Shown: piece by piece, positions 49,692-51,214 of the stretch
Position numbering within the stretch: the stretch's first letter is position 1
How the letters are laid out: each line of letters begins with the position of its first letter
The notes under the pieces: model-generated
What the model was told of the DNA's origin: nothing
Database searches by the model: none
The model's input: the letters and a program-made list of their open reading frames with translations, nothing else
From: an uncultured Alphaproteobacteria bacterium
Lineage (GTDB): Bacteria > Pseudomonadota > Alphaproteobacteria > RF32 > CAG-239
DNA: 64,000 nucleotides
Assembly: GCA_944390455.1 (NCBI GenBank)
Contig: CALXPU010000005.1
Coordinates: forward strand, 9,252-73,251
Direction of reading: 5' to 3'
Translations under genes and position numbers: made by a program

Positions 49692-50639
49692 TTAGAATAT
49701 CGGCAAAGATTGTGCCATTCTTGCGGCTTGCATTTCAATAGATGTAGCTAAATTTAACTTACCACTACGAATAATTGAGCGAACAGAGCAACCTTTATTC
49801 AAGTCAGGATTAGCAAAAAGTGTTTCTATTCTAGGCTTTCTGTGTGTTTCTGTGCCAACCAAATCTTGTTTAATAACAGATAGGATACCGCGGGATAAAA
49901 TATCATATGCGGAACTTTCACTCATACTGAAACTTGCATATTTAACCAAAGAACTTAACGCATCCGTAATGGAGCTTGCGTGAATCGTTGTGAGCACCAA
50001 GTGCCCTGATATTGAAGCTCTTAGGCATTCACACGCCGCATCAGGTGTTCTTATCTCTCCGATAAAAATATAGCGTGGTTTAGAGCGTAATGCTGATTTA
50101 AGAGGATCACGCCAGTTGTCATTTTGAACTTCTGTTTGTTTACAGAAACCTATTGAGCCATTAAATGATTGATATTCTCCTTCCAATGGCATTTCGGCAG
50201 GATCTTCAATTGTATAGGCAAAACCGCCTTCCAGATTTAAGTATTCTGCAAGAAGGCTTGATATTGATGTTGTTTTACCTGAACCTGTTGCTCCCCCCCA
50301 TATTATTAAACCACTTTGTGCAGATAGAGATAGCATATATTGAACAAATCTGTGATCAAATCCTAAATTATGAATGCTCGGAATAGTGAGAGGCATTCTT
50401 CTCAAACAATATAACTCTCCATTTACACTTAGGACGTTTTCAACACGGAAAAATGTTCCTTTATAGTTCATTGAATAGGAACTTGTTTGATGCATAATTA
50501 AAAAGAGTTGCTCGCAAAATTCCTCTTTATCACTTGGCACTACCCTTTTTAAACTATTAGCATATTTTTCATCTGATATATAAAAATCTTTATTTGAATT
50601 TATATATAAATCCGAAAAACTGTATTGCAAAAGTTCCAT
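49692..50639 (-). CDS. PilT/PilU/DotB-family hexameric ATPase
   Basis: 315 aa. Walker A WGGATGSGKTTSI, Walker B-like RYIFIGEIRT, His box GHLVLTTIHASS. It is co-oriented with atpF and 14 nt downstream of it. Confidence 0.7.
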   Translation of the reverse strand: MELLQYSFSDLYINSNKDFYISDEKYANSLKRVVPSDKEEFCEQLFLIMHQTSSYSMNYKGTFFRVENVLSVNGELYCLRRMPLTIPSIHNLGFDHRFVQYMLSLSAQSGLIIWGGATGSGKTTSISSLLAEYLNLEGGFAYTIEDPAEMPLEGEYQSFNGSIGFCKQTEVQNDNWRDPLKSALRSKPRYIFIGEIRTPDAACECLRASISGHLVLTTIHASSITDALSSLVKYASFSMSESSAYDILSRGILSVIKQDLVGTETHRKPRIETLFANPDLNKGCSVRSIIRSGKLNLATSIEMQAARMAQSLPIF

Positions 50640-50653
50640 TTACTTCTCCGAGT

Positions 50654-51214
50654 TTATTGTTTATTCATAGAAAGACCAGATTTAATCTGATTAATTGATT
50701 TTTCTATTAAGTGATTATAATCGGATTTAGTTAATTTTGAACTAATTACTGATATTAATATCTCTTCGGTTCTGTTACTTATTAAATTATTTATTTCTTG
50801 ACCAACCTGTTCAAACTCTTGCTCTATTCTATTATCTACTTCATTGGATTTCCGTTGCAAATATAAATTTAATTCCCTTACTTTTCTTTCTTTTGTTTCC
50901 TCAATTACATTTTCTTGTTCTTTAATAATATCTGCAACTTCTTTATCTGTATTTAAAAATTTTCGTTCATATTCAGCATATAATTTTTGAGCTTCTAGCT
51001 TTAGGCTCTCAGCTTCTTGTAGTTCTCTTTTTATACGGATTATTCTTTTCGTAATGAGATTTTTTCCAGCTTTTAATAGCGGTTTCATTAATACTGTCAT
51101 CACTAAAACAAAAGCAACTGCAACCCAAAATTCCCCGCTCTGATAAAACGCTTCAGCTGGTAGTTCTTGTGTGGCAAGTTGTTCTGATATTTCTTGATTT
51201 GTACTAATGGACAT
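50654..51214 (-). CDS. atpF: F0F1 ATP synthase subunit b
   Basis: 186 aa with an N-terminal transmembrane helix and a long charged helix. It is the last gene of the atpI-B-E-F'-F arrangement typical of Alphaproteobacteria. Confidence 0.75.
   Translation of the reverse strand: MSISTNQEISEQLATQELPAEAFYQSGEFWVAVAFVLVMTVLMKPLLKAGKNLITKRIIRIKRELQEAESLKLEAQKLYAEYERKFLNTDKEVADIIKEQENVIEETKERKVRELNLYLQRKSNEVDNRIEQEFEQVGQEINNLISNRTEEILISVISSKLTKSDYNHLIEKSINQIKSGLSMNKQ

What the first reader, a model, noticed from the sequence alone, without database searches (positions are those of the whole stretch)
49692..51214. PilT/DotB-family ATPase gene spliced onto the end of the housekeeping atpIBEF'F operon
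The 315-aa PilT-like ATPase lies 14 nt downstream of atpF on the same strand. It therefore appears to be co-transcribed with the F0 sector genes. This context is unusual. It marks the right-hand boundary of the inserted pilus/T4SS block. It also implies that the retraction/DotB-like ATPase is expressed constitutively with ATP synthase rather than with the pil genes, which are on the opposite strand. R64-type thin pili normally lack a retraction ATPase.
Basis: seen in the sequence. Interest (0 to 1): 0.55.

Follow-up and report, generated by a model that had tools for sequence, protein, structure and literature searches.

The report
Pilus-retraction-type ATPase fused to atp operon
A BfpF-like (PilT-type) motor ATPase belonging to the neighbouring type IVb pilus gene cluster sits 14 nt behind atpF, an arrangement conserved in at least 27 related gut alphaproteobacterial species and therefore an old operon fusion, not a recent insertion scar.

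Summary
A 315-aa T2SSE-superfamily ATPase (49692-50639, minus strand) starts 14 nt after the atpF stop, with a GGAG ribosome-binding site in the gap, and ends 14 nt from the convergent last gene of a type IVb pilus cluster.

It is not a DotB/TraJ or VirB11 homologue. It clusters with 100% bootstrap support with BfpF, the bundle-forming-pilus retraction ATPase, and with the short second ATPases that follow the platform gene in other type IVb pilus clusters.

In 59 of 73 determinable related species loci the gene lies next to the pil cluster. In 27 species of the window's clade it follows atpF at -11 to +39 nt, often with overlapping stop and start codons, with no terminator and no conserved internal promoter. 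In the sister clade it lies after trxA, behind a conserved intrinsic terminator and an 84-109 nt spacer, so there it is its own transcription unit.

The window arrangement differs from the sister clade by inversion of a ~13-kb housekeeping block. Co-transcription with the F0 genes is therefore well supported by comparison but not shown directly. The "boundary of an inserted island" reading is not supported. I rate it a new member of a known kind in an unusual but conserved operon context, of modest interest.

The parts
49692..50639 (-). BfpF-clade, PilT-like hexameric-motor-type ATPase, 315 aa (putative type IVb pilus retraction ATPase)
   Evidence: PF00437 at 103 bits. Walker A, Asp box, Walker B and His box are invariant in 15 homologues. 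AF2 model pLDDT is 89.4 and the best Foldseek hits are PilT, PilU and PilT4. Identity to BfpF is 39%, and the clade with BfpF has 100% bootstrap support.
50640..50653 (-). 14-nt atpF-ATPase spacer with a GGAG ribosome-binding site; no room for a promoter or terminator
   Evidence: The homologous spacers are -11 to +39 nt in 27 species.
50654..51214 (-). atpF (F0 subunit b)
   Evidence: PF00430 at 44.7 bits. NCBIfam best hits are subunit B models.
51219..51698 (-). atpF' (F0 subunit b')
   Evidence: PF02326 and PF00430. NF006612 and NF009988 are the best hits.
51710..51946 (-). atpE (F0 subunit c)
   Evidence: NF005733 is the best hit. The orthologue in L091 carries PF00137.
51971..52693 (-). 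atpB (F0 subunit a)
   Evidence: NF004482 at 277.5 bits, above the 225 cutoff. Homologues carry PF00119.
52696..53061 (-). atpI
   Evidence: TIGR02230 is the best hit, below its cutoff. Orthologues carry PF09527.
53012..55159 (-). dsbA-like, dciA and xerD genes upstream of and co-directional with the atp genes; part of the block that is inverted relative to the sister clade
   Evidence: Pfam hits. Synteny.
49678..49691 (.). 14-nt convergent spacer between the ATPase stop and the stop of the last pil-cluster gene; no terminator-like structure
   Evidence: fold z-scores -0.70 and +0.18. The homologous gaps are 0-25 nt in most relatives.
49015..49677 (+). Bundlin/PilS-like protein without a class III (prepilin) signal; last gene of the pil cluster
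   Evidence: Weak PF05307 hit. Orthologues carry Bundlin and PilS Pfam hits. The N-terminus has no G/E5 motif.
47877..49010 (+). PilR/BfpE-like platform protein (T2SSF)
   Evidence: PF00482 at 94 bits.
46197..47873 (+). PilQ/BfpD-like assembly ATPase (558 aa, with CxxC...CxxC)
   Evidence: PF00437 at 211 bits. It groups with BfpD and the long Bosea ATPase at 99% bootstrap.
40679..46167 (+). PilL/TcpQ-domain lipoprotein, PilN-family secretin, PilO, and a 515-aa coiled-coil protein in the PilP position
   Evidence: PF10671, PF00263 and TIGR02520 (262.7 bits), and PF06864.
55404..63957 (+). aroK-rph-rdgB-addB-addA-trxA block; in the sister clade this block is co-directional with the ATPase and lies immediately upstream of it

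Best explanation
The gene encodes a BfpF-type member of the PilT/VirB11 motor ATPase superfamily. It is the second, short ATPase of the adjacent chromosomal type IVb pilus system (pilL-N-O-P-Q-R plus a bundlin-like gene).

**Inferred mechanism.** By analogy with BfpF and PilT, it forms a hexamer. The hexamer replaces the assembly ATPase PilQ on the PilR platform and uses ATP hydrolysis to drive pilin removal, that is, pilus retraction.

**Gene-order history.**
- In related genomes that keep what I take to be the ancestral order, the gene is the last gene of the pil operon on the same strand.
- In most gut and rumen relatives it has been turned to face the operon.
- In the sister clade it is an independent transcription unit behind the trxA terminator.
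- In the window's clade, rearrangement of a ~13-kb housekeeping block put the 3' end of the atpIBEF'F operon directly against its start codon, removing its own upstream region.
- Since then the gene has been kept in at least 27 species as the sixth cistron of the F0 operon, often translationally coupled to atpF.

**Inferred consequence.** The retraction-type motor is made with the ATP-synthase stator genes. Its expression is independent of whatever controls the convergent pil operon, much as pilT is usually unlinked from the pilus assembly genes.

**Shown:** identity and fold, clade membership, linkage to the pil cluster, conservation and tightness of the atpF junction, and the contrast with the sister clade.

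**Inferred:** hexamer formation, retraction activity, co-transcription, and constitutive expression.
For: **Family and fold**
- PF00437 matches at 103 bits.
- The catalytic motifs G116-T124, E145-E149, G194-R197 and H213/H220 are invariant.
- The AF2 model (pLDDT 89.4) matches PilT, PilU and PilT4 best.
- A PDB profile search gives PilT 101 bits, DotB 82 and VirB11 37.

**BfpF clade**
- BLAST against BfpF gives 39% identity and 160 bits, and the E. coli and Bosea short ATPases give 153-158 bits. PilT4a/YggR score 72-75 bits and TraJ 66 bits.
- An NJ tree gives 100% bootstrap for the window family plus BfpF plus the plasmid short ATPases.
- BfpF shows the same sub-threshold profile pattern: pilT_fam at 129 bits against a cutoff of 319.

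**Context**
- Homologues sit directly after the platform gene in BFP, in two E. coli IncF plasmid clusters and in a Bosea plasmid cluster.
- The pil cluster lies within 8 kb in 59 of 73 determinable species loci.

**Operon fusion**
- All 27 loci have gaps of -11 to +39 nt, with overlaps such as TAATG and ATGAATAA.
- No terminator or significant hairpin is present.
- Promoter-like sites upstream occur at background frequency (10 of 27 loci against 30% of background windows) and are not positionally conserved.
- The sister clade has a conserved terminator with compensatory stem changes after trxA, followed by an 84-109 nt spacer.

**Rearrangement:**

**Literature**
- BfpF drives BFP retraction (PMC12531336).
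- The PilB/PilT duplication predates the T4aP/T4bP split, and PilT is often lost (PMC6668835).
Against: - No transcript data exist. An internal promoter of a non-sigma-70 type inside atpF cannot be excluded.
- Retraction activity is inferred only from 35-39% identity to BfpF.
- The PilT AIRNLIRE motif is not recognisably aligned, and the protein is below every curated NCBIfam cutoff.
- The window contains no canonical prepilin and no prepilin peptidase, and the bundlin-like gene lacks a class III signal. It is therefore not shown that this clade builds a conventional pilus from this locus.
- In L018 the gene persists after atpF with no pil genes within 8 kb. In 13 other species it is also unlinked from the cluster.
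- The far breakpoint of the proposed inversion could not be verified, because the flanking ORFs are not homologous.
Confidence: 0.7

Rival explanations
1. The adjacency reflects only genome compaction. The ATPase would be transcribed from its own promoter buried in the 3' end of atpF, so its expression would not be tied to the F0 genes.
For: A TTCAAA-16-TATAAT site (10 of 12 matches) lies at 50741-50714, about 75 nt upstream of the ATG. In the sister clade the gene clearly has its own upstream region.
Against: - The count of promoter-like sites equals the shuffle expectation (23 against 21.3).
- That site is shared by only one other locus. Overall, 10 of 27 loci have any site, against a 30% background.
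- Overlapping stop and start codons in nine or more species indicate translational coupling, which requires a shared mRNA.
- No terminator follows atpF.
Confidence: 0.17
2. It is a DotB/TraJ- or VirB11-like traffic ATPase that serves the neighbouring type IV secretion system rather than the pilus.
For: A large T4SS cluster (8349-38933) lies next to the pil cluster. DotB is a close structural match. TraJ and DotB models give weak hits of 79 and 67 bits.
Against: - The T4SS is P-type (VirB2, B4, B8, B9, B10) and has its own VirB11-like gene at 8349-9329.
- The TraJ, DotB and VirB11 cutoffs (368, 463, 250 bits) are far from met.
- The tree separates the family from TraJ, with 100% support for the BfpF clade.
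- Across species the gene is linked to the pil genes.
Confidence: 0.04
3. One reading: the gene is the edge of a recently inserted pilus/T4SS island that landed by chance at the end of the atp operon.
For: The pil and T4SS block is large and its strand orientation differs from its flanks. GC is slightly higher in the pil genes (0.34-0.41 against 0.31-0.37).
Against: - The same atp-ATPase-pil order occurs in 25 species down to 63% ATPase identity.
- The ATPase-pil junction also occurs in the sister clade, in the same chromosomal neighbourhood (rph-addAB-trxA, xerD-dciA-dsbA-atp).
- There are no tRNA genes, no island-type integrase and no flanking repeats.
Confidence: 0.04
4. The protein is a PilT-like paralogue that no longer acts in retraction. 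It could be an accessory or regulatory ATPase, or one exapted to a pilus-independent role, which would explain why it is so often unlinked from the pil genes.
For: - L018 and 13 other species carry the gene beside housekeeping genes (gtrA/gatAB, rpsA, parB, alr, M29 peptidase) with no pil genes within 8 kb.
- The window lacks a canonical pilin and a prepilin peptidase.
Against: - Eighty-one percent of determinable loci keep it next to the pil cluster.
- pilT genes of type IVa systems are also normally unlinked yet act in retraction (established knowledge).
- The catalytic motifs are invariant.
- The nearest characterised relative is a retraction ATPase (PMC12531336).
Confidence: 0.12

Closest known systems
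BfpF, retraction ATPase of the enteropathogenic E. coli bundle-forming pilus (type IVb)
   Same: - Both are short two-domain proteins (318 against 315 aa) without an N1 domain or zinc finger.
- They share 39% identity over 247 residues and fall in the same clade at 100% bootstrap.
- They show the same sub-threshold PilT-family profile pattern.
- Both are partnered with BfpD/PilQ-like and BfpE/PilR-like genes and a TcpQ/secretin pair.
   Different: - bfpF lies inside the bfp operon, directly after bfpE on the same strand, followed by the prepilin peptidase and the transglycosylase.
- Here the gene is inverted, faces the cluster and is joined to the atp F0 operon.
- Here the locus is chromosomal in gut Alphaproteobacteria rather than on a virulence plasmid.
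- Function has not been tested here.
Unnamed short second ATPases of plasmid type IVb pilus clusters (E. coli IncF plasmids NZ_AP027831.1 and NZ_CP098224.1; Bosea sp. pBSY19_1)
   Same: They share 33-36% full-length identity and the same clade. The gene order is the same: TcpQ-secretin-PilO-small protein-long ATPase-platform-short ATPase.
   Different: In those clusters the short ATPase is co-directional and operonic with the pil genes. None of them is linked to atp genes.
PilT/PilU of type IVa pili (TIGR01420)
   Same: They are the best structural and profile matches among solved structures. They have the same motor fold and motifs. As with pilT, the gene is transcriptionally separate from the assembly genes.
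   Different: - Identity is only 23-30%.
- The score is 105.8 bits against a cutoff of 319.1.
- The protein is about 30-50 residues shorter.
- The AIRNLIRE region is not aligned.
- It falls in a separate clade.
R64/IncI1 thin pilus (pilI-V)
   Same: It has a PilL/TcpQ-domain lipoprotein, a PilN-family secretin (TIGR02520 at 262.7 bits), PilO, the PilQ ATPase, the PilR platform and a PilS-position gene, all in the same order.
   Different: - The IncI1 operon has no short ATPase.
- The window lacks the transglycosylase, the prepilin peptidase and the PilV shufflon.
- The window's PilQ groups with BfpD rather than with IncI1 PilQ.
DotB / IncI TraJ (type IVB secretion ATPases)
   Same: They are PilT-like hexameric ATPases of similar size and are close structural matches.
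   Different: They score 66.7 and 79.3 bits against cutoffs of 463 and 368. TraJ gives only 66 bits by BLAST and falls outside the clade. The window has no Dot/Icm-type genes.

Membership tests
PilT/VirB11-like secretion ATPase superfamily (Pfam T2SSE, PF00437) | Score above the Pfam gathering threshold | tested here: met
   103.1 bits against 24.9.
PilT/VirB11-like secretion ATPase superfamily (Pfam T2SSE, PF00437) | Walker A, Asp box, Walker B and His box are intact | tested here: met
   GATGSGKTT (116-124), IEDPAE (144-149), IGEIR (193-197) and GHLVLTTIH (212-220). The key residues are invariant in 15 homologues of 54-100% identity.
BfpF-type short ATPase of type IVb pili | Phylogenetic grouping with BfpF to the exclusion of PilT4a, TraJ, the assembly ATPases and VirB11 | tested here: met
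   100% of 500 NJ bootstraps. BLAST gives 160 bits to BfpF against 66-75 bits to PilT, YggR and TraJ. The reference set was small and no maximum-likelihood tree was built.
BfpF-type short ATPase of type IVb pili | Two-domain architecture of about 320 aa without an N1 domain or a tetracysteine zinc motif | tested here: met
   315 aa. The AF2 model has an N-terminal alpha/beta domain and a RecA-like C-terminal domain. No CxxC pairs are present in the sequence.
BfpF-type short ATPase of type IVb pili | Encoded within or next to a type IVb cluster, after the platform gene | tested here: met
   The gene is adjacent and convergent in the window. Across relatives, 50 species are convergent and 9 are tandem on the same strand, out of 73 determinable. 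The orientation differs from BFP.
BfpF-type short ATPase of type IVb pili | Loss of the gene gives non-retracting, hyper-aggregating pili | not testable with these tools
   The phenotype is known for bfpF mutants (PMC12531336). No genetics are possible for these uncultured organisms here.
PilT/PilU family type IVa pilus ATPase (TIGR01420) | Score above the curated cutoff (319.1 bits) | tested here: not met
   105.8 bits. BfpF itself scores 129.4 bits.
PilT/PilU family type IVa pilus ATPase (TIGR01420) | C-terminal AIRNLIRE motif | tested here: inconclusive
   HMMER aligns the PilT AIRNLIRE segment opposite a gap in the family profile. A similar-looking VRSIIRSGK stretch exists a few residues later.
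DotB / TraJ (TIGR02524, TIGR02525) | Score above the curated cutoffs, and association with Dot/Icm or IncI tra genes | tested here: not met
   66.7 against 463.3 bits and 79.3 against 368.3 bits. The adjacent T4SS is VirB/P-type. The family falls outside the TraJ branch.
VirB11 (TIGR02788) | Score above the curated cutoff (249.95 bits) | tested here: not met
   49.7 bits. A separate T2SSE-family, VirB11-position gene lies at 8349-9329.
Member of the atpIBEF'F transcription unit | Same strand, no terminator, and a spacing compatible with a polycistronic mRNA, conserved in relatives | tested here: met
   The window gap is 14 nt. All 27 loci have gaps of -11 to +39 nt, with overlaps. No terminator is present.
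Member of the atpIBEF'F transcription unit | A transcript spanning atpF and the ATPase | not testable with these tools
   No RNA data are available.

The most novel reading that the evidence does not exclude
The tight and often translationally coupled fusion of a pilus-retraction motor gene to the F0 stator-stalk gene, kept in at least 27 species, may be a selected regulatory design rather than a neutral rearrangement. It would tie retraction capacity to ATP-synthase expression. Because no terminator separates the convergent units (0-25 nt), read-through from the strongly expressed atp operon could act as antisense or collision control on the 3' end of the pil operon. Alternatively, the ATPase may have acquired a pilus-independent role, as suggested by L018 and the other unlinked loci.
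Probability: 0.12. Interest if true: 0.5.

Novelty: new member of a known kind. Interest (0 to 1): 0.3.

Why it matters
- **A chromosomal, vertically inherited system.** A widespread, uncultured group of gut and rumen Alphaproteobacteria (538 species genomes carry a relative) has a chromosomal type IVb pilus system equipped with a BfpF-like second ATPase. Such systems were so far known mainly from virulence and conjugative plasmids.
- **A natural before-and-after example of operon capture.** The same gene is an insulated transcription unit in one clade, with a terminator and spacer after trxA. In the sister clade it is a translationally coupled extra cistron of the ATP-synthase F0 operon.
- **Annotation.** These proteins are currently labelled TadA, GspE or PilT. 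The result also corrects the idea that the locus is a recent island.
- **Limits.** It does not reveal a new mechanism.

Tried and rejected
- **DotB/TraJ/VirB11 assignment:** rejected by profile cutoffs, BLAST scores and the tree.
- **Island insertion:** rejected. There are no tRNA genes, no GC break, and the synteny is conserved.
- **Internal promoter in atpF:** the best site is not conserved and site frequency equals background.
- **Terminators or structured RNA at either junction:** none found.
- **Biopython bootstrap supports:** these were meaningless because the replicate trees were not rooted consistently. I recomputed them as bipartitions.
- **First prepilin motif scan:** the pattern was too strict and missed GRSMVEM-type pilins. 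I repeated it with a looser pattern and with tblastn and still found nothing in the window.
- **R64 record AP005147:** not in the collection. I used an annotated IncI1 plasmid instead.
- **Simple single-inversion model:** the near breakpoint fits. However, the ORFs beyond the far breakpoint (194 aa after trxA in the window lineage, 201 aa after atpF in the sister clade) are not homologous. The rearrangement history is therefore only partly resolved.
- **Literature:** searches for pilT together with atpF, and for RF32 type IV pili, found nothing relevant.
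Full report
**1. Observation**

- atpF lies at 50654-51214 (186 aa; PF00430).
- A 315-aa ORF lies at 49692-50639 and matches Pfam T2SSE (PF00437) at 103 bits against a cutoff of 24.9.
- The two are separated by exactly 14 nt (ACTCGGAGAAGTAA), with a GGAG about 9 nt before the ATG.
- Upstream on the same strand lie atpF', atpE, atpB (NF004482 at 277.5 bits, above the 225 cutoff) and atpI. Before these come a DsbA-like gene, dciA and xerD.
- On the plus strand, a type IVb pilus cluster converges on the ATPase and leaves another 14-nt gap. 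It contains a TcpQ-domain lipoprotein, a PilN-family secretin, PilO, a coiled-coil protein, a 558-aa PilQ/GspE-like ATPase, a T2SSF platform and a bundlin-like protein (40679-49677).
- A P-type (VirB-like) secretion system occupies 8349-38933 on the minus strand. dnaA, dnaN and recF open the window.

**2. What the protein is**

- *NCBIfam models.* The best hit is the PilT/PilU family, at only 105.8 bits against a cutoff of 319. TraJ (79 bits), DotB (67) and VirB11 (50) are weaker still.
- *Solved structures.* A profile of 15 homologues finds PilT first (101 bits), then PilU, DotB (82), PilB/GspE and, far behind, VirB11 (37).
- *Predicted fold.* An AlphaFold2 model (mean pLDDT 89.4) has the two-domain PilT architecture. 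Its best Foldseek matches are PilT4, PilT and PilU, with DotB close behind.
- *Catalytic motifs.* Walker A, the Asp box, Walker B and the His box are invariant across homologues of 54-100% identity.
- *Annotated plasmids.* This search was decisive.
  - The nearest named relatives are BfpF, the retraction ATPase of the bundle-forming pilus (39% identity, 160 bits).
  - Unnamed short ATPases directly follow the platform gene in type IVb clusters of E. coli IncF plasmids and of a Bosea plasmid (33-36% identity, 153-158 bits).
  - IncI1 TraJ reaches 66 bits and type IVa PilT/YggR reach 72-75 bits.
- *Tree.* A neighbour-joining tree with 500 bootstraps puts the window family with BfpF and these short ATPases at 100%. 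They are separated from PilT/YggR/TraJ, from the assembly ATPases and from VirB11.
- *BfpF profile pattern.* BfpF itself shows the same sub-threshold pattern (129 bits on TIGR01420).
- *Literature.* BfpF drives retraction (PMC12531336). Other type IVb pili such as TCP and CFA/III have no retraction ATPase (PMC5207764). The PilB/PilT duplication predates the type IVa/IVb split, and PilT is often lost (PMC6668835).
- *R64-like plasmid.* An annotated IncI1 plasmid has no short ATPase in its pil operon. Its PilQ groups with BfpD at 99%.

**3. Comparative context**

- *Distribution.* The protein has 1,549 database homologues. Relatives occur in 538 species-representative genomes, almost all of them gut or rumen alphaproteobacterial MAGs. 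I examined 80 loci.
- *The window's clade.*
  - In all 27 loci with 63-99% identity (the window's clade, 98% bootstrap) the gene follows atpF.
  - In 25 of them the full order xerD-dciA-dsbA-atpIBEF'F-ATPase, facing pilS-like-pilR-pilQ-pilP-pilO-pilN-pilL, is conserved.
  - The atpF-ATPase spacing is -11 to +39 nt. Overlaps or abutments such as TAATG, TAAATG and ATGAATAA occur in about ten species.
- *More distant relatives.* None of the remaining 53 loci (53-60% identity) has the atp linkage.
  - In 25 the ATPase still faces the pil cluster.
  - In 9 it is the last gene of the cluster on the same strand, after one to three canonical prepilin genes.
  - In 13 no pil gene lies within 8 kb.
  - Six are truncated.
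- *Overall linkage.* Across all 73 determinable loci, 59 (81%) have the pil cluster within 8 kb. The gene is therefore a component of the pilus system, and its link to atp is a clade-specific trait.

**4. How the atp fusion arose, and why co-transcription is likely**

- *Sister-clade layout.* One sister-clade contig carries everything: pilQ> pilR> pilS> ... <ATPase <trxA <addA <addB <rdgB <rph <aroK | xerD> dciA> dsbA> atpIBEF'F>.
- *Relation to the window.* The window has the same genes, but the block from trxA to atpF is inverted, so atpF rather than trxA abuts the ATPase. trxA is found at 63649-63957, as this predicts.
- *Independent unit in the sister clade.* There, 13 of 14 loci have a canonical intrinsic terminator immediately after trxA: an A-tract, a GC hairpin with compensatory stem changes, and a T-run. 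An 84-109-nt AT-rich spacer and a ribosome-binding site follow before the ATPase start.
- *Position of the near breakpoint.* In the window lineage the trxA terminator stayed with trxA. The near breakpoint therefore fell between that terminator and the ATPase start, which removed the gene's own upstream region.
- *No independent signals in the window clade.*
  - There is no room for a terminator or promoter in the gap.
  - No significant RNA structure is found at either junction.
  - Sigma-70-like sites in the 200 nt upstream occur at background frequency (10 of 27 loci against 30% of background windows) and are not positionally conserved.
- *Limits.* Co-transcription with the F0 genes, and translational coupling in many species, is the best-supported reading, but no transcript data were available. 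The far breakpoint could not be verified, because the ORFs beyond it are not homologous between the clades.

**5. Mechanism**

- *Shown.*
  - The protein is an intact PilT-fold ATPase of the BfpF clade.
  - It is genetically linked to a type IVb pilus cluster.
  - It is fused to the F0 operon in a conserved way.
- *Inferred.*
  - It forms a hexamer that engages the PilR platform in place of PilQ and powers pilin extraction, that is, retraction.
  - It is expressed with the ATP-synthase stator genes and independently of the pil operon, as pilT usually is in type IVa systems.
- *Caveats.*
  - The window has no canonical prepilin or prepilin peptidase, and the bundlin-like gene lacks a class III signal.
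  - In L018 the gene persists after atpF with gtrA, gatA and gatB downstream rather than pil genes.

**6. Verdict**

- The "spliced onto / island boundary" interpretation is not supported, because the arrangement is old and vertically conserved.
- The DotB alternative is rejected.
- The gene is a new member of the BfpF-like group in an unusual, conserved operon context.
- I found no description of an atp-pilT-type fusion in the searchable literature.
- Interest is modest at 0.3. This is a clean example of operon capture and a useful annotation correction, not a new kind of system.

Noticed in passing
window 8349-38933 (minus strand): A VirB-type T4SS cluster with Rickettsiales-like duplications (two VirB8, two or three TrbC/VirB2 pilins, several large VirB6-position proteins). 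It has a giant 1453-aa VirB10 carrying beta-flower repeats, and a 2092-aa beta-flower/DUF3659/RHS-repeat protein between VirB9 and VirB10. No VirD4 or relaxase was seen in the window.
   Followed up: partly
window 49015-49677 (+); L088 18566-19123: The PilS-position protein has a bundlin/PilS-like globular domain. Its N-terminus is an ordinary membrane anchor with no Gly cleavage site and no Glu5, so it is not a canonical prepilin.
   Followed up: partly
L048 6691-7912; L059 7281-7850; L065 6531-7794; L068 5897-7848; L072 5945-7875: Related species carry one to three tandem canonical type IVb prepilin genes (leader ...G|RSMVEMLGVLAIIGVL) between the PilS-like gene and the ATPase. None was found anywhere in the 64-kb window, and no A24 prepilin peptidase either.
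   Followed up: partly
L018 7418-12756: A rumen MAG (RUG10829) keeps atpF-ATPase with a 1-nt gap. It is followed by gtrA, gatA and gatB, with no pil genes within 8 kb.
   Followed up: partly
L028-L056, about 5-45 nt after trxA; L094 6330-6370: A conserved intrinsic terminator follows trxA, with compensatory stem changes between species (CCGGC/GCCGG, TCCGG/CCGGA, CCAGT/ACTGG). It is retained after trxA in the window lineage too.
   Followed up: yes
L045, L047, L049, L050, L051, L060 (about 6-8 kb in each locus): In more distant relatives the ATPase lies co-directionally downstream of unrelated housekeeping genes (M29 aminopeptidase, rpsA, parB, alr, a nucleotidyl transferase), or next to a divergent ABC transporter gene. 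The gene has evidently been relocated repeatedly.
   Followed up: partly
window 39197-40588 (+): A 463-aa Ser/Thr/Lys-rich ORF with a signal-like N-terminus and no Pfam match lies between the T4SS and the pil cluster.
   Followed up: no
window about 40000-41000: Cumulative GC skew reaches its minimum (-7.04) at the divergent junction between the T4SS (minus strand) and the pil cluster (plus strand), about 40 kb from dnaA at 101-1003. This may reflect gene-strand bias rather than the replication origin.
   Followed up: no
database annotations of homologues: Homologues of this ATPase are variously labelled 'Flp pilus assembly complex ATPase component TadA', 'GspE family protein' or 'twitching motility protein PilT', and several MAGs are named 'Acetobacter sp.'. 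The protein labels do not match its BfpF-clade placement; I did not check the organism name.
   Followed up: no
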